A DNA stretch of 64,000 bases from IMG/VR virus record IMGVR_UViG_3300045988_176782, positions 1-64,000 of that record; one strand, given 5' to 3'. Below, in pieces: positions 54,027 to 62,592 of the stretch. A model generated the notes under the pieces. The model did no database searches, was not told where the DNA came from, and saw only the letters and a list, made by a program, of their open reading frames with translations. The first letter of the stretch is position 1. Every line of letters begins with the position of its first letter. The stretch is from a virus. The position numbers were made by a program, and so were the translations under genes.

Positions 54027-54366
54027 CCTTTATGTTACGAAAAGATTCGCTATATCTTTCCTTCTACAGGCTTTCCCTGTAGAGCAGACTATATATTCAT
54101 CCTTGTTTTACAAGGCGGGAGCCTTTTCAGACCGCTTGGCCTTACGAGAGCGTAACTCTCTAGTCGTTGAACCTTCTTCTTGCGAAGCTTGGCTGCGGGT
54201 TAAGCAATCTTTAACTTTTTTACTGTACCAAAGCCACTACACTTTGCCGCATATTTTTGATATGTTTAGTAGTCAAAGCTCTAAGCCTTTCCCCGTCAAT
54301 TAAACTCCATTCATATTAAGGATTGCTCCTTAACGACCCTAATTCAAGAAACCTTGAAATTTAAGG
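54027..54366 (-). mobile_element. ORF-less group I intron in the tape measure gene
   Basis: On the - strand it contains AATTGACGGGGAAAGGCTTAGAGC, GGTTCAACGACTA, ATATATAGTCTG and the ..CGTAACATAAAGG 3' end, which are family motifs shared with the other introns. The reading frame shifts between its flanks, and splicing joins ..EATRES|ENIGSALK... The junction is accurate to about 3 nt. Confidence 0.7.
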
Positions 54367-56427
54367 ACTTTCACGCGTTGCCTCTACCATAGTAGCGATC
54401 ATCGCGGTTGTATTTTCAAAACTACTACCAACGTTTGCTGCGCCGGAAGCAGTTTTAGACATGGCTTCAATTAAGTCTTGCGTATCAGACGCAGTTTTCG
54501 CAGCTACATTACTGTAAACATCCGTAACATGAGCTGCGTCAGTCATATCCATGTTGAACGCACGAATAGCTACAGTCATACCATCTGCAGCATCACTGTA
54601 AGAAATACCAGCAATACGAGCCATCTTTAATGTCTCGGTTGTTGTTGCCATTACATCCGCAGTTCCCAAGCCTTGTTGGTAATAAAGTTGTGTTACTTCA
54701 TAAACACCTTGGGTAGTTACACCATATTGTTTTGCGATGGCCATATAATCATTAATTTGGCCCCATAAATCCTCAACACTAAAATCAGTAACTACCGCAA
54801 TGTTAGTCATTGCTTTATCAAGATTTTGAATATCATTATAAGCTTCGCGGATACCCTATCTAATATAACTTACAATTTCTCTGGCACCCATCCAACGAGC
54901 AATAGACATTTGTAAATTACGCTTAAACATTTCTGCTTCATTTTGAGCTTGCTATGCCGCAGCGTTAAGGTCACCTTGTGCACGTAAATTATCTTCTGTT
55001 CCAGTACGATAATCTCTAATATTAGAATCAATACTCGTTGCGCCGCCAGTTTTTCTGACGCGAAGAGCATCTTGGTATCCTTGCTATTCTTGAGTTAAAC
55101 TATTTAATTTATCTTGTAATTCTTGTATTGTTTGAGCTTTTAGAATAGTAGAAAGATTCTCAAATTCTGTAGCAAGACTTCGTAAAGAAGGAATTAAAGT
55201 AGAAGTTATGCTAGTAATATCATTTTGGATATTAGCATACTCTTGTTCCTAAGTATTTAACTTCCCCTAATTTGCGCGGATATAAGTGTCTGCTTCATTT
55301 AATTGAGTTTGCGCAGTAGTGTAACGGTCAACGGATTGTTGAACCATAAATTTATTTGCGTAATTACGGCCCCAAGCGCTAACTTTTTGAACTTTCTCTA
55401 CACCTTCAACACCAAGGCCAATTCCATCATTTTCTAATTGAATGGCTTTAGCAATCGCGGCCATAATACTGTCTTTTAAACCAGCAACTGGGCCACTAAT
55501 TACAGATTGAATTTCGGCATTATCAATCTTAAATGCCTGCATCATCTATGTTACTACGTCTCTACCGACATCAGTTAGAGTATTGGAAGATTTATTGTAG
55601 TAATCAGTATTACTTGTAATTTCTTTTTGAATAGAATTAAGAACATTTCTTGCTGTATAATTCGCTGTCAAACCACTAACAGTTGTCGCTTGCGCTATAC
55701 TTGAAGCAAAGCGACTTCTATTATAAGTTTGACTGGTTACACCCATTTCAGTCTAAGCAGAAGTTCGTTTTGTCTATGCTGCAGCCATTCCTTGACGCAA
55801 TGGCGCTAATTTAGCCATAACATCAGATGCTTTTTGCTCTAAACTAGCAAGCTATTTTTCTGCATCACTAATACCAGCTCTAAATGCAGCAGCATTAGCA
55901 CTTAAAGATTTATCTGCATTAAAACCTTTAAGTTTAGTGGCAGTAGCATCTGCCAAAATAGAGCGGCCTGTTCTTCCTTTACCATCGTCATAAGTTTCTA
56001 AAAACTCTCGGCTATTTTTCTTTGGCTCTGCGCCGCCTTCAACAGCACGCAAATCCTTTTTAATGGCAGAAATTTTATTAGCAAAAGTATTTAAGTCTCG
56101 CTTTTCTGCATCGGTTAAAATAAAATTACTTAATCCCGCGTTTTGGACTTGTCGTGCGGAATTTTGAACGGTATCATAAAAAGATTCAACCTAACGAGTA
56201 GCTTTTTTTAATTGGTTGCTATCCACCATTGGTCCTGCTAATGTGTCAGCAAATTCTTGCGCTTTAGCTTTTAATTGGTCAAGCGTTTTAGACATACTGG
56301 TATACAAAGCAGTGCCAGGATTCATCTAAGCTAATTGAGATTCAAATTGTTGAACAATTTGATCCATTTGCTTTTTATTTGCAACGAAATCAACAGCTAC
56401 TGTATAACTTCTTGGTCCTGTGGCCAT
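54367..56427 (-). CDS. tape measure protein, exon 1 (687 codons, 11 in-frame TAG by hand translation)
   Basis: RBS AAAGGAG plus ATG 56427. Fragments 55852-56052, 55546-55746, 55267-55545 and 54361-54810 share a frame. The TP901-family TMP core is present (AKTASDTQDLIEAMSKTASGAANVGSSFENTTAMIATM). Confidence 0.7.
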
Positions 56428-56484: not shown

Positions 56485-57300
56485 TTATATACCAGAGATG
56501 TCTTCATCAAGATATTGTATTTCGCATACAACATCATCTCTTCCTTCCTTTGTCTCTGGCTACGCTATAACTCTAAAAGTAGACACCATAGGGTCTGCTC
56601 TTTCTCCCATTCTCAAATTAATATTACTCAATATACGAATTTTAGGCATACGCAAATAACCTGTGCGTAGTAAGCCCTCATTCTCATCCTTCATTTGAAA
56701 AGTGGCTTCAAGAGTATATAAATTCGTAAATCTCTCACGATTCATAGAATAAGTTATTATATCTTTTTTATATTCAAAATAATAATCGCACATAATGGTT
56801 TGGTCGGCAAATTCTTTTCCAAAATCAATCTTTAAATTGTCAATTAAAATAGGAAAAATGCGGCCTTGAATATTGTTGAAATCATAAGTAAAGAAAAAGT
56901 TTTTATATTCTATATCATTCAAAATAGGATGATACTTTAAATACCCTTTTCCATTCTCATCCAACATAATAACTTCATTATATGGTAAAATATTGTCGTC
57001 TACTTTATTTAACATATTCGCGCCAAGAAGTAGGTTAAAACTTATTGTATTTATCGTTCCATTAGAAAACGCAAATGTTGTTTCTTGACGGTCCTCCCAA
57101 ATAACGCGAGGTTCATTATGCCAACCGCCACGAGCCATAATAGGGCGGACATTTTCAGAAAGAAGCGCAATTTGTAAGTTATCAAAATAAATGACTGGTT
57201 CGCCTGCTTCAAGTAATCTTTCTCCGAAGGCGACTTCATTTTTTGTTTTTATACAAACGCGCTCAAGATTTTTTATACCAAGTTCTTCAAGAGTGTTCAT
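56485..57300 (-). CDS. tail tube-like protein, paralogue of the major tail protein (246 aa to TAG, 271 aa if TAG is read through)
   Basis: RBS GGAGGT plus ATG 57300. It shares LGIK.. and A.GGW.N....W.. blocks with the intron-split gene upstream. TAG at 56560 is followed by 24 more sense codons to TAA 56485-56487. Confidence 0.55.
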
Positions 57301-57328
57301 TATTTACCTCCGAAGATAAAAAAATAAA

Positions 57329-57356
57329 GGGAGCAGGCGGATTAACGCCCGCTCCC
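57329..57356 (-). terminator. intrinsic terminator after the major tail protein gene
   Basis: On the - strand, GGGAGCGGGCG-TTAATC-CGCCTGCTCCC followed by TTTATTTTTTT. Confidence 0.7.
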
Positions 57357-57396
57357 GCGGTTAGTTTCATTTTTAGTGTGCGTAAAGCACTTACCA

Positions 57397-57463
57397 TCAA
57401 TATTTTACTAGAGAGAACATGTTTCCATCATTATCGCGGAGCACATTCAAAGTCATACTAAAT
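57397..57463 (-). CDS. major tail (tube) protein, exon 6 of 6
   Basis: Encodes (T)FSMTLNVLRDNDGNMFSLVKY, ending at TGA 57397-57399, about 40 nt before the terminator. Confidence 0.55.
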
Positions 57464-57602
57464 CATTTTTCTTGCGTTGTATCGCTACTACAACTCTTAT
57501 AATTTCTTATAAGATGAGACTATATCATTCATCAATTTCTTGATTTAACTGCTCTTTCGAGTGCGCTTACACCCTACTTCCTTACGGAATAGTCGTTGAA
57601 CC

Positions 57603-58322
57603 TTAATCCAAAAATTTCCATTTATATCCAAAAGTGGTGATTCGTTTTCCTTCACATACCGCACGAATATTACGACCAGCCGCCGTAGGTTTGCCTAAAG
57701 CTCTTGCCGCCTCATTGGCTGAAGAAAAAGTGGCTATTAAATTTCCTTCTAAATCATATTGTCCAGTTTTTCGTCCGTGTGTTTTCTTGGCATTAACTGG
57801 AATAACACAATTATCTTCTTTATATTTATAAATTGAGTCTTTATAATGCGTAATCTCCCCACGACAATTCTGCGAAACAGCTTGATAGGGTATACCCATT
57901 TTTCTTGCGCATTCTTTTATAGATGCGAAACTTTCAATAAAAATCCCTTCTAAATTATAACGAGAAACTTCACGTTTTAAGCTACAAGTATTAGCTATAT
58001 ATTCTACTGCTCCTCCTGGTTTAATATTATAACCATATTGAGGATTTTGCGTTTTATACAATTGAATATAATATTTTTCTTTATCATTTAAATCTTCATA
58101 AGGGACTTCTTCTAAAATTTCTACAATAAAATTTTCATAACCATACTTTTCAAAAGCTCGCATAAGTGCCGTACAATTTCGATACCCTTTTCCGTCTTTT
58201 CCTGCACGAATTTTTAAAGACTCAATTGTTTTACCGACATATTTTTTATTAGATGGAGAAGTATAGCAATAAATAAAGCCATGATTTTCTTTTGGACGCT
58301 GTTTTAATAATTCTGTATTCAT
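57603..58322 (-). CDS. GIY-YIG homing endonuclease (intron-encoded)
   Basis: GFIYCYTS..KYVGKT..KIRAG motifs plus repeated C-terminal DNA-binding modules (..GYKWKFLD). It contains no TAG. Confidence 0.85.
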   Translation of the reverse strand: MNTELLKQRPKENHGFIYCYTSPSNKKYVGKTIESLKIRAGKDGKGYRNCTALMRAFEKYGYENFIVEILEEVPYEDLNDKEKYYIQLYKTQNPQYGYNIKPGGAVEYIANTCSLKREVSRYNLEGIFIESFASIKECARKMGIPYQAVSQNCRGEITHYKDSIYKYKEDNCVIPVNAKKTHGRKTGQYDLEGNLIATFSSANEAARALGKPTAAGRNIRAVCEGKRITTFGYKWKFLD

Positions 58323-58343
58323 ATTTTCCTTTCTTGGATTCTT

Positions 58344-58452
58344 GGCTGCTGATTGCCCAATCCTATTTTATGTTACTACAAATTTTTATATTTGTCAAAT
58401 TATTACTAATTTGTTGAGTTAAATAGGCTCTAAGGGGATTCCAGCAATTAAG
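58344..58452 (-). repeat. intron-internal repeat, copy A (intron 5)
   Basis: About 109 nt, near-identical to 60667-60774. On the - strand it includes TTGACA-N17-TAACAT and a palindrome ACAAAT..ATTTGT. Confidence 0.7.
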
Positions 58453-58498
58453 CAGTTTTTACTTCCACATTTAAGCCGTGACTTTTCGGATTAGGTTC

Positions 58499-58631
58499 GT
58501 GGAAGGATCGCCTTCTGCCTGCATGGTTAAGGTTACTTCGCTCAACATCTTAGCCTTGTTGATGATGAATTGGAAAGCTTCATCCTTACCAGTGGCTTCA
58601 GAACGAATTAGAGCATCGCCTACAACCTTGT
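58499..58631 (-). CDS. major tail (tube) protein, exon 5 of 6
   Basis: Encodes (Y)KVVGDALIRSEATGKDEAFQFIINKAKMLSEVTLTMQAEGDPS(T). Confidence 0.55.
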
Positions 58632-59749
58632 CATTTTTATTATCGTTTCCTAAACTTCTTATATTTTCATATAAGATTAGACTATATCTTCACACAAATT
58701 ATTTGAGTGTTCGGCACTAACCTCAAGGAATTTAGAGGTATTTAGTCGTTGAGCCTTGAGCAAGTTTTCCATTTAAATCCATAAGCCGTATTGGTATCTT
58801 TATCTAATACTTTACGAATTAAACTTGTTTCCTTTCCGAGACTTTTCGCCGCGGCAGTAATGGAAGGGAAAACTTGGATAATCTTCTTTGTTATTGGGTC
58901 AATTTGTTGAATTTGCTTCGCAGTGTTATTATATTTTTTAACCATTAAAATTTCTGTGCATTCCCAACGATAACCATAAGCACTTTTTAATTCATTACGA
59001 CAACAACGACGAATTGCAGAACGTTCACCGTTCACTGCTCTCGCCGCTTCTGCTAAAGAAGGAAAAGTGTTTATCAATATCCCGTCTAGAGAAAATTGCT
59101 TAATCTTTTTTTCACTATTATCTACAATTCTTTCATGAATAGGGAATCTATTTAATTTTTCATAGCTCCAACAAAAATTATATTGGGTATATACTTTATT
59201 TTCTAAACAACCTTGAAAAGTTTGAGGAACTGTATTAAAAGCTTTTGCAACTTCTGATATATTTTCCCACTCTCTTATAAAAGAACCGTTTTGACTTGAA
59301 TATTGATATACTTTTTTACGTTCTTTAGACCAGCCTTTTTGACCACCATCGGTTAAATTATAACCATTTGGCGCTAAAGTATTAAATAATTGAATATACT
59401 TTTTTTCAGCCTAGTCTAATTGGTTTTTTGGGACTTCTGCTAAAATTTCAACAGTAAAATTAGAAAAGCCATATTTTTGAATTGCTTTATAAAATAAATC
59501 ACACCCTTTATAGCATTTTCCATTATGGCCCGCTCTTTCTTGCAGAGAACGAGTTGTTTGCCCAACATAAGAAGAACCAGATGGAGATGTATATTTATAA
59601 ATAAATCCATAACCACTCTTTGGTCGTTTTTCCATTTTAATACTCCTTGGTTGCTGATTGCCGGCCATTTCAGGCTACGGTTTCCAGCAATTCACCGAAT
59701 TGATTTGCATTTTTTAACTCCCCGCGTGGAGCCCTACAATGTTGAGGAA
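58632..59749 (-). mobile_element. group I intron 4 of the major tail protein gene, with GIY-YIG HEG
   Basis: P1 pairs exon GGAACCU with GGGCUCC (one mismatch). The intron ends ..CGATAATAAAAATG. Core motifs are present. An alternative junction 9/11 nt away is also in frame. Confidence 0.6.
58742..59635 (-). CDS. GIY-YIG homing endonuclease (intron-encoded) with one in-frame TAG
   Basis: RBS AAGGAG plus ATG 59635. GFIYKYTS..SYVGQT..QERAG motifs. ORFs 59411..59668 and 58742..59077 are in the same frame. I hand-translated the whole gap and the only interruption is TAG 59411-59413. Confidence 0.75.
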
Positions 59750-60220
59750 AGGTTCCAGGGAATGTAGAAGGACTAATAACGATTTCAGAAGCGGTGCCTT
59801 CTTCAACTACTTCCTCTTCCCAGAAGAAACGAATCTTAGTGATTTCGGTGGCGGCATCAGCAAAAGGCTTAGTGCCAGTCTTTAAAGTAACAGTGAATTT
59901 CGCGGGATCGCTGCCATCATTAGTTACAGTATCAACTTCGCCAGAGCCACGTAGGCCGTGAGTCATGTCAACCCACTTAAACTTGAAGCCAGCCTTTACA
60001 ACATCCTCACCAGGGAAGTTGTTCTTACCGCCCATAGTCTTCCCATCACCCATTGGGAAGGTAAAGGTTTCACCAACCTTAAAGTTGCGTTCAGCGTTCT
60101 TATAAATAGTAACAGTGTGTTCGTCAGTGGACTTATTATACATCGCACCACCCATGATAATGCGTAGTTCTTCCCAAGATACTACAGCATCTTCTAGGGT
60201 TACATTGATGTCCTTACCAT
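59750..60220 (-). CDS. major tail (tube) protein, exon 4 of 6
   Basis: Carries most of ORF 59670..60155 (..DINVTLEDAVVSWEELRIIMGG...FTVTLKTGTKPF..). Confidence 0.6.
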
Positions 60221-60468
<248 letters not shown>

Positions 60469-60493
60469 AGTCCCAAGTGACCAATTTAGGATT
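60469..60493 (-). CDS. major tail (tube) protein, exon 3 of 6 (25-nt micro-exon)
   Basis: AATCCTAAATTGGTCACTTGGGACT encodes NPKLVTWD plus 1 nt and lies between two intron cores. A 13-nt version that starts after ..AAATTG is also in frame. Confidence 0.55.
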
Positions 60494-60813
60494 CATTGTG
60501 TTCCACATAGTTCGCTAATCTATGCGCGGATTTCTCCTGCTTATGATTTCTCATAATGTTCAGACTATATCTTCATCTTTAGATGGGTCTAAAGAGTCCC
60601 CTGTTTCGTGAGGCTTCTCACTACAATTAGTCGTTGAACCTTTCTCTTTTGGCCTTAAGAGATTTGGCTGCTGATTATCCAATCTTGATTTATGTTACTA
60701 CAAATTTTTACATTTGTCAAATTATTACTAATTTGTTGAGTTAATCAAGCTCTAAGGACGTTCCAGCAATTAAGAGGATTTTTCCGTTGAGGCAAACCTA
60801 AGTATGTATGTCA
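60494..60813 (-). mobile_element. ORF-less group I intron 2 of the major tail protein gene (320 nt)
   Basis: 8-bp P1 pairs exon GUUGGGGU with GCCUCAAC. Family core motifs are present. It shares a ~108-nt near-identical segment with intron 5. Confidence 0.7.
60667..60774 (-). repeat. intron-internal repeat, copy B (intron 2)
   Basis: See copy A. Only a handful of substitutions are visible by eye. Confidence 0.7.
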
Positions 60814-60960
60814 ACCCCAACCGCCCTGAGCTGAAACATTTTCAGCAGTAGTTTCTACAGTAGAAACCTTTAGGGTATTTAAATAAAGTACAATATCGCC
60901 GGCTTTGATGTCTCCTTCGTCGGCTAGAGCTTGGAAATAAACGTTAGCTACTTCCTTAAT
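60814..60960 (-). CDS. major tail (tube) protein, exon 2 of 6
   Basis: Encodes IKEVANVYFQALADEGDIKAGDIVLYLNTLKVSTVETTAENVSAQGGWG. It aligns with IKNLERV...ARGGWHN of the paralogue. Confidence 0.6.
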
Positions 60961-61783
60961 CAATTATGTTACGATTGAACCTGTTATCAATCTCTTATAG
61001 TTTCCTATAAGTTCAGACTATATCTTCATCCGATTTCTCGGAGTCTTGCACAGGAGAAGCAGGATTTTCTTCTCGCTTAGTCGTTGAGCTTTCTAAAAAG
61101 TATTTCCAAACATATCCTCCCGCAGTTTTTCGCTTGCCACGAACACATTGCGTAATAGAACTACGACAAGTTCCAGTCTATTCACTTGCCTCACGTTGAG
61201 AATCATAAACTTTTAACAAATGGCCCTCTAAATCATATTGTGCTACTTTTATTTTAGACGCTTCCGCACCTAAAGGCTGAACCTTTTCAACCCATTCTTT
61301 TACACTTTCTTCACGATGTTTCCCAGAAAAACTATGTTTAGTATTTTCAGAATAAGTAGTCCATTCTAAATTATTAACACAATTATTAGATTTATTAAAA
61401 TCTTTATGATTTACAACAGGATAATTATTTGGATTACTAATAAAAGTAGAAGCTATAATTCTATGAGCACGATATAAATGTCGAGATAAAGATACTAATA
61501 AATAACCATCTTTGTCTTTCCATTGTGAAACAAGTTCTTTTGTGCTTTTATCACGAATTTGCCCATTCTCACAAGCTTCATAATTATTATCAACGGGAAC
61601 TGTTTTCCACATTATTTATTGTCTCCTTTTTAGCTTAGTTGCTGATAGCCCATTGTTGCATCTTATTATTTTTTAAACATTCACGCTTGCATTTGCACGC
61701 TTCGTTGTAGTAAATAAGCTTTAGGGCGTTCCAGCAATTCACAAGAATTGTCAGTAAGAATTGCTCCTTACAGTGGCATTTCT
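60961..61783 (-). mobile_element. group I intron 1 of the major tail protein gene, with HNH HEG
   Basis: The 3' end ..CGTAACATAATTG matches the family. P1 is short (exon UGGU with GCCA). An alternative 5' junction 12 nt downstream is also in frame. Confidence 0.6.
61013..61612 (-). CDS. HNH homing endonuclease (intron-encoded) with one in-frame TAG
   Basis: RBS AAAGGAG plus ATG 61612. HNH_3-type motif VVNHKDFNKSNNCVNNLEW. TAG 61178-61180 is followed by a typical C-terminal DNA-binding module (..CVRGKRKTAGGYVWKY). The frame then runs into the intron core to TGA 61013. Confidence 0.7.
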
Positions 61784-61813
61784 ACCATAACGTTCAAAGA
61801 TGTTAATGGCCAT
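61784..61813 (-). CDS. major tail (tube) protein, exon 1 of 6 (10 codons)
   Basis: RBS AAGGAGG plus ATG 61813, encoding MAINIFERYG. The junction YG|IKEV mirrors LGIKNL in the paralogue. Confidence 0.5.
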
Positions 61814-61827
61814 ATTAAACATCCTCC

Positions 61828-62592
61828 TTATTTAAAAGTCATTGTTTTTATCCAATGAGAGAGTTTGTCTTTTCCTATTTTTGCTCCCGCCATTGCGGCG
61901 CGAGTATTTATATTAAACTCTTCGTGCCAACCCATACGCTTAAGTTGGTCTTGAAAAGCATAATAACTCAATTTCATAACAGATTGAAGCGTATATCCTG
62001 AAGTTCCAATTGGAAGAGAAGCTACCAAATCAGAAAAGTTAATTGTACTTTTATCTGATTTCTTTTGCTTTTCTTTTAGTTCTTTTCGTTTTTTTCTACC
62101 CTCAAGCATTTGGAGCTTTAGCTCTCTTACTTTTTGGGAGTCTGTATCTAAAAACTCTATACGCTCTTCTGAATAATCTTCCATCGCACAAGCTAAACCA
62201 ATATATGTTTGGAAATCATAGAAGTTATCTTTTGTTAAAATGCGTTTTTCAGATGGGTCGCCTAAAATAATACTTGAAGTTTCCAAAGAAATAATAATAG
62301 AATCTTGAGTAAATAAATAAAACGCTTCTTCTAACATTTTCTTTGTTTCTGACTCCATAGAACAAACAAGTAACAAATATTCAAAATCACTTAAATTTTT
62401 TAATACATCATTAACTTCTTTTTCTTCTACAAAAGGTTTCTCAATTAATAATAGAGAAATATCTTTATAAAATTTAGACAAACCAACAGAAATTATATCT
62501 TCTAATATAGGAGAATATATTAAACAAATATCTTTAAAAATTAACGGCTTACCACACAATAAACGCAATTTATCATCATCAATTAAAGTCAT
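61828..62592 (-). CDS. hypothetical structural-module protein
   Basis: 254-aa ORF with no TAG, ending at TAA. Its stop overlaps the RBS of the major tail protein gene. Confidence 0.5.
   Translation of the reverse strand: MTLIDDDKLRLLCGKPLIFKDICLIYSPILEDIISVGLSKFYKDISLLLIEKPFVEEKEVNDVLKNLSDFEYLLLVCSMESETKKMLEEAFYLFTQDSIIISLETSSIILGDPSEKRILTKDNFYDFQTYIGLACAMEDYSEERIEFLDTDSQKVRELKLQMLEGRKKRKELKEKQKKSDKSTINFSDLVASLPIGTSGYTLQSVMKLSYYAFQDQLKRMGWHEEFNINTRAAMAGAKIGKDKLSHWIKTMTFK

What the first reader, a model, noticed from the sequence alone, without database searches (positions are those of the whole stretch)
60469..60493. 25-nt micro-exon sandwiched between two complete group I intron cores
The 3' end of intron 2 (..GGAACACAATG) and the P1 of intron 3 (exon GGGACU pairing with GGUCCC 13 nt downstream) leave only AATCCTAAATTGGTCACTTGGGACT as exon. 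This keeps the frame between GGWG and YGKDINV and encodes NPKLVTWD. That matches the ...V.W.. spacing of the paralogue (PRVIWED).

Such a short exon must serve both as the 3' exon of one ribozyme and as the P1 substrate of the next. This raises the question of splicing order or interdependence.
Basis: inference. Interest (0 to 1): 0.7.

Follow-up and report, generated by a model that had tools for sequence, protein, structure and literature searches.

The report
25-nt exon between two phage introns
A real 25-base exon lies between two self-splicing group I introns in a phage tail-tube gene; both introns look able to splice independently, and the layout resembles the 23-base exon already described in phage Twort.

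Summary
On the minus strand, 60493..60469 (AATCCTAAATTGGTCACTTGGGACT) lies between two complete group I introns, 60813..60494 and 60468..60221 (Rfam 78.5 and 71.9 bits; threshold 50).

The boundaries rest on four things:
- P1 helices with a U·G pair at each 5' splice site, plus adjacent P10 pairings.
- A terminal G on each intron.
- The peptide GGWG|NPKLVTWD|YGKDINV, invariant in every uninterrupted homologue aligned. This rejects the 13-nt alternative.
- Natural alleles carrying only intron 2 (L001, L028) or only intron 3 (L034, L036).

Intron 2 reads exon bases 1-8 and intron 3 reads bases 20-25. The elements do not overlap, so nothing forces a splicing order. Skipping the exon would shift the frame.

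The gene encodes a YomU-type tail tube protein of an uncultured phage (relatives' contigs ~165 kb) that reads TAG as sense. It carries five group I introns in an 873-nt coding sequence. The conserved motif is an intron hot spot: relatives have 31-nt and apparently 10-nt exons there.

Precedents exist: Twort orf142 (23-nt exon, exon skipping) and Coxiella 23S rRNA (34 nt). This is a new member of a known kind. Splicing itself is untested.

The parts
60469..60493 (-). Micro-exon E3, 25 nt, AATCCTAAATTGGTCACTTGGGACT. It encodes NPKLVTWD plus the first base of the Tyr codon.
   Evidence: NPKLVTWD is invariant in the homologues. The same exon is contiguous with E4 in L001 and with E2 in L034.
60494..60813 (-). 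Intron 2, an ORF-less group I intron of 320 nt. It begins tgacatac and ends ggaacacaatg (terminal G).
   Evidence: Rfam RF00028 at 78.5 bits. P1 appears in the MFE fold. The conserved 3' tail ...GGAAYAYAAUG is shared by all site-2 introns in relatives.
60221..60468 (-). Intron 3, an ORF-less group I intron of 248 nt. It begins taattttacc and ends gtaacataatg (terminal G).
   Evidence: Rfam RF00028 at 71.9 bits, with P1 aligned to GGGACUUAA/UAGGUCCC. MFE fold. A presence/absence difference against L001 fixes both ends to the base.
60814..60821 (-). 5' strand of intron 2's P1: the last 8 nt of exon 2, GUUGGGGU, with the splice-site U at 60814.
   Evidence: -12.7 kcal/mol duplex. Exon position -7 covaries with the guide across loci: U-A, A-U and G-C.
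60786..60793 (-). Internal guide sequence of intron 2, GCCUCAAC (3' strand of P1).
60794..60801 (-). P10 guide of intron 2, UUAGGUUU, directly 5' of the P1 guide. It pairs with micro-exon bases 1-8 (AAUCCUAA, 60493..60486) with one U-U mismatch.
   Evidence: Read from the sequence. Duplex CCUAA/UUAGG is -4.7 kcal/mol. Relatives have AACCC/GGGUU in the same register.
60469..60474 (-). 5' strand of intron 3's P1: the last 6 nt of the micro-exon, GGGACU, with the splice-site U at 60469.
   Evidence: Duplex -9.8 kcal/mol.
60450..60455 (-). Internal guide sequence of intron 3, GGUCCC. G at 60455 sits opposite the splice-site U.
60457..60463 (-). P10 guide of intron 3, UUACCAU. It pairs with the first 7 nt of exon 4 (AUGGUAA, 60220..60214).
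   Evidence: Read from the sequence. Duplex -7.4 kcal/mol, against 0.5 with the micro-exon start.
60814..60960 (-). Exon 2, 147 nt, IKEVANVYF...AQGGWG.
59750..60220 (-). Exon 4, 471 nt, (Y)GKDINV...SPSTFPGT.
61784..61813 (-). Exon 1, 30 nt, MAINIFERYG. The 5' splice site after TATGGT is inferred from homologues, which lack the RNAT residues of my first model.
60961..61783 (-). Intron 1, a group I intron carrying an HNH/NUMOD homing-endonuclease ORF (61612..61013) with one in-frame TAG.
   Evidence: Rfam at 36.4 bits, E 2e-6. Pfam NUMOD1, I-HmuI_NUMOD-like and HNH_3..
58632..59749 (-). Intron 4, a group I intron with an endonuclease ORF (59635..58742). The N-terminus has a GIY-YIG-like motif, there are NUMOD1 domains, and there is one in-frame TAG.
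   Evidence: Rfam at 38.9 bits.. The intron is absent in L001.
58499..58631 (-). Exon 5, 133 nt, YKVVGDAL...QAEGDPST.
57464..58498 (-). Intron 5, a group I intron with an endonuclease ORF (58322..57603). It has C rather than U at the 5' splice site.
   Evidence: Rfam at 29.4 bits.. The intron is absent in L008.
57397..57463 (-). Exon 6, 67 nt including the stop codon, (T)FSMTLNVLRDNDGNMFSLVKY*.
56560..57300 (-). Paralogous tube-like gene (GGWHNEPRVIWEDRQ) with no introns.
   Evidence: phrog_2729 at E 1.8e-14.

Best explanation
Two separate group I introns of the phage type, both without an ORF, have inserted 25 nt apart in the most conserved motif (AQGGWGNPKLVTWDYGKDINV) of the major tail-tube gene. 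The host genome is an uncultured phage (relatives' contigs ~165 kb) that reads TAG as sense.

Each intron carries its own recognition elements:
- Intron 2 pairs the last 8 nt of exon 2 (GUUGGGGU) with its guide GCCUCAAC (P1, U·G at the splice site). It aligns its 3' exon by pairing micro-exon bases 1-8 with UUAGGUUU (P10).
- Intron 3 pairs micro-exon bases 20-25 (GGGACU) with GGUCCC (P1, U·G). It aligns exon 4 through AUGGUAA/UUACCAU (P10).

These elements do not overlap. The most likely mechanism is two independent self-splicing reactions in either order, giving E2-E3-E4 and the invariant peptide NPKLVTWD.

Skipping the micro-exon would produce a frameshift (GGWG-MVRTSM-stop). It would arise either through a hybrid fold of the shared core strands or because intron 3's guide can also pair with the GGGGU end of exon 2. 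It can only be an unproductive side reaction.

Shown here: the anatomy, the boundaries, the pairings, the conservation and the natural single-intron alleles. Inferred: that the introns self-splice, and that they do so independently.
For: - Rfam full-length hits above threshold for both introns.
- MFE folds give both P1 hairpins with U·G at the splice sites, singly and together in the 623-nt precursor.
- Cognate P1 duplexes are -10.0 and -9.8 kcal/mol, against -4.2 and -6.5 for the crossed pairs. Cognate P10 duplexes are -4.7 and -7.4, against +0.5 and -2.1.
- Exon/guide covariation in intron 2's P1 across eight loci: the Gly wobble base U/A/G at -7 is matched by A/U/C in the guide.
- The spliced CDS of 873 nt is in frame. 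It matches 1473 homologues, and GGWGNPKLVTWDYGKDINV is invariant in the uninterrupted ones aligned.
- Natural alleles carry intron 2 only (L001/L002 at 95% identity, L028) or intron 3 only (L034, L036). The same 25-nt exon between both introns occurs in a second lineage at about 46% protein identity (L033, L035, L086, L087) and in a 95%-identical relative (L008/L083/L085).
- Exon skipping by tandem group I introns around 23-34-nt exons is documented (PMC10136302).
Against: - No RNA data: neither self-splicing nor exon inclusion has been observed.
- Intron 2's P10 has a U-U mismatch. P10 energy alone does not separate the 25-nt from the 13-nt 3' splice site (-4.7 against -5.0 kcal/mol); that choice rests on protein conservation and register.
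- Intron 3's guide can pair with the end of exon 2 at -6.5 kcal/mol.
- All five introns of the gene share core strings (AAUUGCUGG, AAUCAGCAGCC, CAACGACUA, GAUGAAGAUAUAGUCU). Inter-intron misfolding and some dependence on order or on a chaperone therefore cannot be excluded.
Confidence: 0.8

Rival explanations
1. Splicing is ordered or cooperative. The short exon couples the two ribozymes, so that one intron must go first, or the two fold into one large ribozyme. Exon inclusion against skipping would then act as a regulated switch for tail-tube production.
For: Twort orf142 (23-nt exon) and engineered tandem Tetrahymena introns (24-nt exon) show both skipping and inclusion, and a stepwise route in which the second intron re-uses the first junction (PMC10136302). 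Here intron 3's guide pairs with the end of exon 2 at -6.5 kcal/mol, and the introns share core strands. In relative L023 the exon appears to be only 10 nt, and P10 (AACCC) and P1 (GAAAU) abut.
Against: P10 and P1 targets in the 25-nt exon are 11 nt apart. Both P1 hairpins coexist in the fold. Each intron exists alone in natural alleles. Introns 2 and 3 are only about 51% identical overall, unlike the highly similar Twort pair. The skipped product is out of frame, so it cannot be a useful isoform.
Confidence: 0.13
2. The real exon is the 13-nt GTCACTTGGGACT, with intron 2's 3' splice site after ...AAATTG. Alternatively the 25 nt are a pseudo-exon removed with both introns as a composite, side-by-side twintron.
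For: The 13-nt choice also keeps the frame and ends in G. Duplex energy of GUCACUUGGG with the guide region is similar (-5.0 kcal/mol). Tandem group I modules that splice as one unit are known in fungal mitochondria (PMC12308204).
Against: N64, P65, K66 and L67 are invariant in every homologue aligned. L034 and L036 read ...tggggcAAYCCNAAG... with no intron there. All site-2 introns end in the conserved GGAAYAYAAUG immediately before AAYCC. Removing all 25 nt shifts the frame and stops after 6 codons.
Confidence: 0.03
3. The gene is a decaying pseudogene overrun by selfish introns that no longer splice, and the phage relies on the downstream paralogue.
For: Five introns make up 80% of the locus. 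Intron 5 has a non-canonical C at its 5' splice site. The two introns flanking the micro-exon have lost their endonuclease ORFs.
Against: All six exons assemble into an uninterrupted 290-aa protein with phrog_2729 at E 3e-45, and the conserved columns are intact. The same double-intron arrangement persists in relatives at 95% and about 73% nucleotide identity with intact exons. Both intron cores score above the Rfam threshold. The paralogue is only about 23% identical, and both genes co-occur in intron-free relatives.
Confidence: 0.04

Closest known systems
Staphylococcus phage Twort orf142: three group I introns and a 23-nt exon between introns 2 and 3, with exon skipping (Landthaler & Shub 1999, as summarised in PMC10136302). 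PMC11878797 states that orf142 encodes a tail tube protein.
   Same: A phage late structural gene for a tail tube. Several IA2-type group I introns in one short gene. A roughly 25-nt exon between introns numbered 2 and 3. Skipping is possible.
   Different: The protein family differs: tblastn of this protein against phage genomes lists no Staphylococcus among its hits. There are five introns rather than three. The two flanking introns are only about 51% identical, whereas Twort's pair is described as highly similar. The host phage reads TAG as sense. No RNA data exist here.
Coxiella burnetii 23S rRNA: two group I introns flanking a 34-nt exon, with exon skipping seen by RT-PCR (cited in PMC10136302).
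   Same: Two dissimilar group I introns separated by a very short exon in a bacterial-type system.
   Different: It is an rRNA gene in a bacterial chromosome with no reading-frame constraint. The introns belong to subgroups IB2 and IA3.
Engineered tandem Tetrahymena introns flanking a 24-nt exon in lacZ-alpha (PMC10136302).
   Same: Almost the same exon length. The exon supplies the 3' splice-site context of intron 1 and the P1 target of intron 2. That work shows distinct P1/P10 elements favour exon inclusion, which is the situation found here.
   Different: It is artificial, the two IC1 introns are identical or near-identical, and it was assayed in E. coli.
Tandem group I modules in fungal mitochondrial genes, for example Ophiostoma cob-201 with two IB introns 18 nt apart, and cox3-640 spliced as one unit (PMC12308204).
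   Same: Neighbouring group I introns separated by a very short exon or pseudo-exon, and insertion hot spots in conserved coding sequence.
   Different: These are organellar, with LAGLIDADG endonucleases, and some splice as composites. Here the 25 nt are demonstrably coding.
Bacillus phage SIOphi DNA polymerase gene (Bastillevirinae), where 47% of transcripts skipped an exon (PMC11878797).
   Same: A phage group I intron pair that produces skipped and included products.
   Different: It is a replication gene, and I did not read the exon length in that paper. That paper reports introns only in nucleotide/DNA-metabolism genes of that subfamily, whereas this is a tail gene.

Membership tests
Group I intron (Rfam RF00028), intron 2 and intron 3 | Covariance-model score at or above the curated gathering score over the whole core (P1-P9). 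| tested here: met
   78.5 and 71.9 bits against a gathering score of 50, model positions 1-253, not truncated.
Group I intron (Rfam RF00028), intron 2 and intron 3 | P1 helix between the 5' exon end and an internal guide, with U·G at the 5' splice site. | tested here: met
   Intron 2 has GUUGGGGU/GCCUCAAC and intron 3 has GGGACU(UA)/(UA)GGUCCC, both with U·G. There is compensatory exon/guide covariation at site 2 in relatives.
Group I intron (Rfam RF00028), intron 2 and intron 3 | Terminal G at the 3' end of the intron, and P10 pairing of the 3' exon adjacent to the P1 guide. | tested here: met
   Both introns end ...AAUG. P10 is AAUCCUAA/UUAGGUUU (one mismatch) for intron 2 and AUGGUAA/UUACCAU for intron 3, each directly 5' of the guide.
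Group I intron (Rfam RF00028), intron 2 and intron 3 | Guanosine-dependent self-splicing. | not testable with these tools
   This needs in vitro transcription and splicing, or cDNA.
Subgroup IA2 (typical phage group I introns) | P7.1/P7.2 insertion and the IA2 core consensus. | not tested
   A hairpin insertion after CAACGACUA is visible in the Rfam alignments. The nearest BLAST matches are short core segments of phage sequences. No subgroup-specific model was run.
Twort orf142-type tandem introns with a skippable short exon | Two complete group I introns in one gene separated by an exon of a few tens of nt. | tested here: met
   A 25-nt exon between the two Rfam hits.
Twort orf142-type tandem introns with a skippable short exon | The flanking introns are highly similar, allowing a single hybrid ribozyme. 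| tested here: not met
   Global alignment gives 171 identities over 333 columns. Only the core motifs are shared.
Twort orf142-type tandem introns with a skippable short exon | Exon-skipped and exon-included RNAs both observed. | not testable with these tools
   No transcript data. Intron 3's guide pairs with the exon 2 end at -6.5 kcal/mol, which makes skipping conceivable.
Side-by-side twintron (composite intron) | The sequence between the modules is not part of the mature RNA, and the unit is excised as one. | tested here: not met
   The 25 nt encode invariant NPKLVTWD and are needed for the frame. Each module occurs alone in relatives.
YomU-type tail tube protein (PF27173 / phrog_2729), the host gene | Significant full-length profile match. 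| tested here: met
   phrog_2729 at E 3.3e-45 over residues 14-292. Homologues carry PF27173, named YomU_Tube. The local Pfam copy lacks that model and gave no hit. tblastn hits are annotated as tail tube or major tail protein in 130-170-kb Bacillus and Lactococcus phage genomes.

The most novel reading that the evidence does not exclude
The conserved GGWGNPKLVTWDYG motif of this tail-tube family is a multi-site group I intron hot spot. It yields natural exons of 31, 25 and apparently 10 nt between ribozymes. In the shortest case (L023) the upstream intron's P10 target and the downstream intron's P1 target abut and use every base of the exon. In such alleles, and perhaps in the 25-nt one, correct tail-tube synthesis would then depend on an enforced splicing order or on cooperation between neighbouring ribozymes. 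That would make splicing a timing or quality gate for late-gene expression in TAG-recoded phages.
Probability: 0.12. Interest if true: 0.7.

Novelty: new member of a known kind. Interest (0 to 1): 0.42.

Why it matters
A 25-nt exon is easily missed by gene callers. The database ORF P0001 starts at the ATG formed by the last bases of intron 2. The tail-tube gene of this phage group is therefore mis-annotated wherever introns occur.

Biologically, the locus is a natural allelic series: no intron, intron 2 only, intron 3 only, both, and exons of 10, 25 and 31 nt. It could be used to test how tandem group I ribozymes avoid or tolerate exon skipping, a question so far addressed only in Twort, Coxiella and engineered Tetrahymena constructs.

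It also shows group I introns colonising a structural (tail) gene very densely, with five in 873 nt of coding sequence. Their homing-endonuclease ORFs contain in-frame TAG codons, which ties intron mobility to the phage's recoded genetic code.

None of this changes the understanding of group I splicing unless order dependence is shown.

Tried and rejected
- Megablast of 57000-62500 against 50,697 phage records found only 33-47-nt core matches and no close relative. Distant blastn of the two introns found only short core similarities, to cr108_1, Staphylococcus and Bacillus phages.
- My first model of exon 1 (ending ...NAT) was wrong. Homologues lack RNAT, so the 5' splice site was moved to after TATGGT.
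- Rfam's alignment of intron 2 places P1 on an exon hairpin (60866..60840). I rejected this in favour of GUUGGGGU/GCCUCAAC, which the MFE fold and covariation support.
- The 13-nt exon was rejected on protein conservation. P10 energy did not discriminate.
- I considered reading intron 5 as lying after the stop codon, with the unspliced C-terminus NLIRKVTA* resembling the paralogue. I rejected this because homologues end DPSTFxMTLNVLRD...KY, which exon 6 encodes.
- The Pfam scan of the spliced protein gave nothing, because the local copy lacks PF27173.
- The tRNA scan of the window found no suppressor tRNA.
- The Twort paper itself (PMC22036) is not held, so its facts are taken second-hand from PMC10136302 and PMC11878797.
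- The window's own genome was not found in IMG/VR or in the metagenome set. The closest relatives are 95-96% identical.

Full report
**What is there**

The finding's coordinates are correct, but the feature lies on the minus strand. Read 5'->3' on that strand, the sequence is ...cagggcggttggggt | tgacatacatacttaggtttgcctcaacgg...ctatgtggaacacaatg | AATCCTAAATTGGTCACTTGGGACT | taattttaccataggtccccttaatggcgacattaag...aaacgtaacataatg | atggtaaggacatcaatgta....

Rfam's group I intron model matches both flanking elements over its full length and above the curated threshold of 50 bits. The hits are 60540-60866 (78.5 bits, E 3e-18) and 60253-60478 (71.9 bits, E 2.8e-16). Weaker hits mark three more introns in the same gene. 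A sixth, above threshold at 65.5 bits, lies in the tape-measure gene.

**Exon boundaries**

Five lines of evidence agree.

1. *P1.* For intron 3, the Rfam alignment and the MFE fold pair GGGACU, the last six exon bases, with GGUCCC 13 nt downstream. The splice-site U sits opposite G, and a P2 hairpin follows at once. For intron 2, the MFE fold pairs GUUGGGGU, the end of exon 2, with GCCUCAAC at intron positions 21-28, again with U·G. Rfam's own alignment mis-assigned this P1 to a hairpin inside exon 2.

2. *P10.* Directly 5' of each guide lies a stretch complementary to the start of the downstream exon. For intron 2 this is UUAGGUUU against AAUCCUAA (one U-U mismatch). For intron 3 it is UUACCAU against AUGGUAA. 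Both introns end in G.

3. *Protein.* Joining six exons gives an 873-nt in-frame CDS. The exons are 61813-61784, 60960-60814, 60493-60469, 60220-59750, 58631-58499 and 57463-57397. The 290-aa product matches phrog_2729 (E 3e-45) and 1473 database proteins carrying PF27173, YomU_Tube. In the alignment, all 20 uninterrupted homologues read AQGGWGNPKLVTWDYGKDIN without a gap, and N64 to K74 are invariant in all 22 sequences. This rejects the 13-nt alternative, which would delete NPKL.

4. *Natural alleles.* Contig L001 is 95% identical at the protein level. It carries the 3' end of intron 2 (...ggaacacaatg|aatcctaaactggtcacttgggact|atggtaagg...) but not intron 3. This fixes intron 3's ends to the base. 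L034 and L036 carry intron 3 but read ...tggggcAAYCC... straight through site 2. L028 carries only a site-2 intron.

5. *Covariation.* Across eight site-2 introns, the wobble base of the Gly codon at exon position -7 is U, A or G. The guide base opposite it is A, U or C respectively.

**How it probably works**

The 25-nt exon is read by both ribozymes, but at opposite ends. Intron 2's P10 uses bases 1-8 and intron 3's P1 uses bases 20-25, leaving 11 unpaired bases between them.

Several results point to independent folding:
- Both P1 hairpins form together in a fold of the full 623-nt E2-I2-E3-I3-E4 segment.
- Cognate P1 duplexes (-10.0 and -9.8 kcal/mol) are clearly more stable than crossed ones (-4.2 and -6.5). 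Cognate P10 duplexes (-4.7 and -7.4) beat crossed ones (+0.5 and -2.1).
- The introns are only about 51% identical overall and share just the core motifs.

Together with the single-intron alleles, this points to two independent self-splicing events in either order.

The engineered Tetrahymena study found that distinct P1/P10 elements are what enforce exon inclusion (PMC10136302). That is the arrangement seen here.

Skipping remains conceivable. Intron 3's guide can pair with the GGGGU end of exon 2, and all five introns of the gene share core strands. However, the skipped mRNA is out of frame (GGWG-MVRTSM-stop), so it cannot be a useful isoform. None of the splicing chemistry has been observed, so it is inferred.

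**Context**

The gene is the major tail-tube gene. tblastn hits are annotated as tail tube or major tail protein in 130-170-kb phage genomes of Bacillus and Lactococcus, among other hosts, at 31-35% identity. It is followed by an intron-free paralogue, then by a very long frame that is open only if TAG is read as sense.

Eighty percent of the 4.4-kb locus is intron. Introns 1, 4 and 5 carry endonuclease ORFs with NUMOD DNA-binding domains, and intron 1's ORF also has an HNH domain. Introns 2 and 3 have no ORF. In relatives, the introns at these same sites carry large ORFs whose sequences look like HNH or GIY-YIG homing endonucleases; I judged this by sequence resemblance and did not scan them against Pfam. 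That pattern fits the usual gain-and-decay cycle of homing elements.

The conserved motif is an insertion hot spot:
- The same 25-nt exon between two introns recurs in a 95%-identical relative (L008, L083, L085).
- It also recurs in a lineage only about 46% identical in protein (L033, L035, L086, L087).
- In L003 the upstream intron sits 6 nt further 5', giving a 31-nt exon.
- In L023 a site-2 intron is followed by AACCCGAAAT and then an intron carrying an HNH-type ORF. Splicing with that 10-nt exon gives a full-length in-frame protein.

**Comparison with what is known**

Short exons between group I introns are documented:
- Twort orf142: 23 nt, with exon skipping (PMC10136302). The gene is also a tail-tube gene (PMC11878797).
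- Coxiella 23S rRNA: 34 nt (PMC10136302).
- Engineered Tetrahymena constructs: 24 nt (PMC10136302).
- Fungal mitochondria: 18-nt cases (PMC12308204).

This locus belongs to that kind. It is not a twintron, and it does not share Twort's feature of two highly similar introns. New here are the gene family, the intron density, the allelic series and the TAG-recoded host.

**Verdict**

It is a new member of a known kind and of moderate interest.

Noticed in passing
Whole window, e.g. minus strand 56193..54858: TAG appears to be read as sense. Treating TAG as a codon raises the longest open frame from 854 to 3323 aa. In the long frame downstream of the tube genes, the first ten in-frame stops are all TAG. 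No tRNA gene is in the window.
   Followed up: partly
61612..61013 (-) and 59635..58742 (-); L028 2366-2908; L036 2321-2944: The intron-encoded endonuclease ORFs contain in-frame TAG codons: one each in introns 1 and 4 here, and up to six in relatives. They are full length only if TAG is sense. A NUMOD domain hit spans the TAG in intron 1's ORF. The endonucleases therefore seem adapted to the recoded phage.
   Followed up: partly
58499/58498 (-), 5' splice site of intron 5: Intron 5 has C rather than U before the splice site, so the pair with the guide is C-G (CUUCCAC/GUGGAAG). An adjacent P10 (AUUUAG/CUUAAAU) is present. Homologues (DPST|FSM) and the ACA codon of L001 fix the junction. Left unspliced, the frame ends NLIRKVTA*, resembling the paralogue's C-terminus.
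   Followed up: partly
L023 2175-2184: An apparent 10-nt exon, AACCCGAAAT, lies between a 284-nt site-2 intron and an 817-nt intron carrying an HNH-type ORF. P10 (AACCC/GGGUU) and P1 (GAAAU/GUUUC) would use all ten bases. The spliced CDS is full length and in frame.
   Followed up: partly
L003 2720-2750: In a 96%-identical relative, a different upstream intron with a GIY-YIG-type ORF is inserted 6 nt further 5' (GG|WG). This gives a 31-nt exon before the same intron 3.
   Followed up: partly
54064-54359 (-): Another group I intron above the Rfam threshold (65.5 bits) interrupts the long tape-measure-like frame.
   Followed up: no
L001 74-733 (protein P0001, cluster of 267 sequences): The gene caller started this ORF at the ATG formed by the last three bases of intron 2 (M+NPKLVTWD...) and ran it into the next intron. 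This is a systematic mis-annotation of intron-split tail-tube genes.
   Followed up: yes
Introns 1, 3 and 2, 5 of the window: The introns look mosaic. The 3' 160 nt of introns 1 and 3 are 76% identical (110/145). The 5' 120 nt of introns 2 and 5 are 88% identical (72/82). This suggests recombination between introns within the gene.
   Followed up: no
L001 691-1472; L033, L034 and L035 near residue 268; L023 and L033 at residue 42|43: Further intron sites occur in the same gene family: MQA|EGDPS, around residue 268, and 42|43. At least seven distinct insertion sites are seen in a roughly 290-codon gene.
   Followed up: partly
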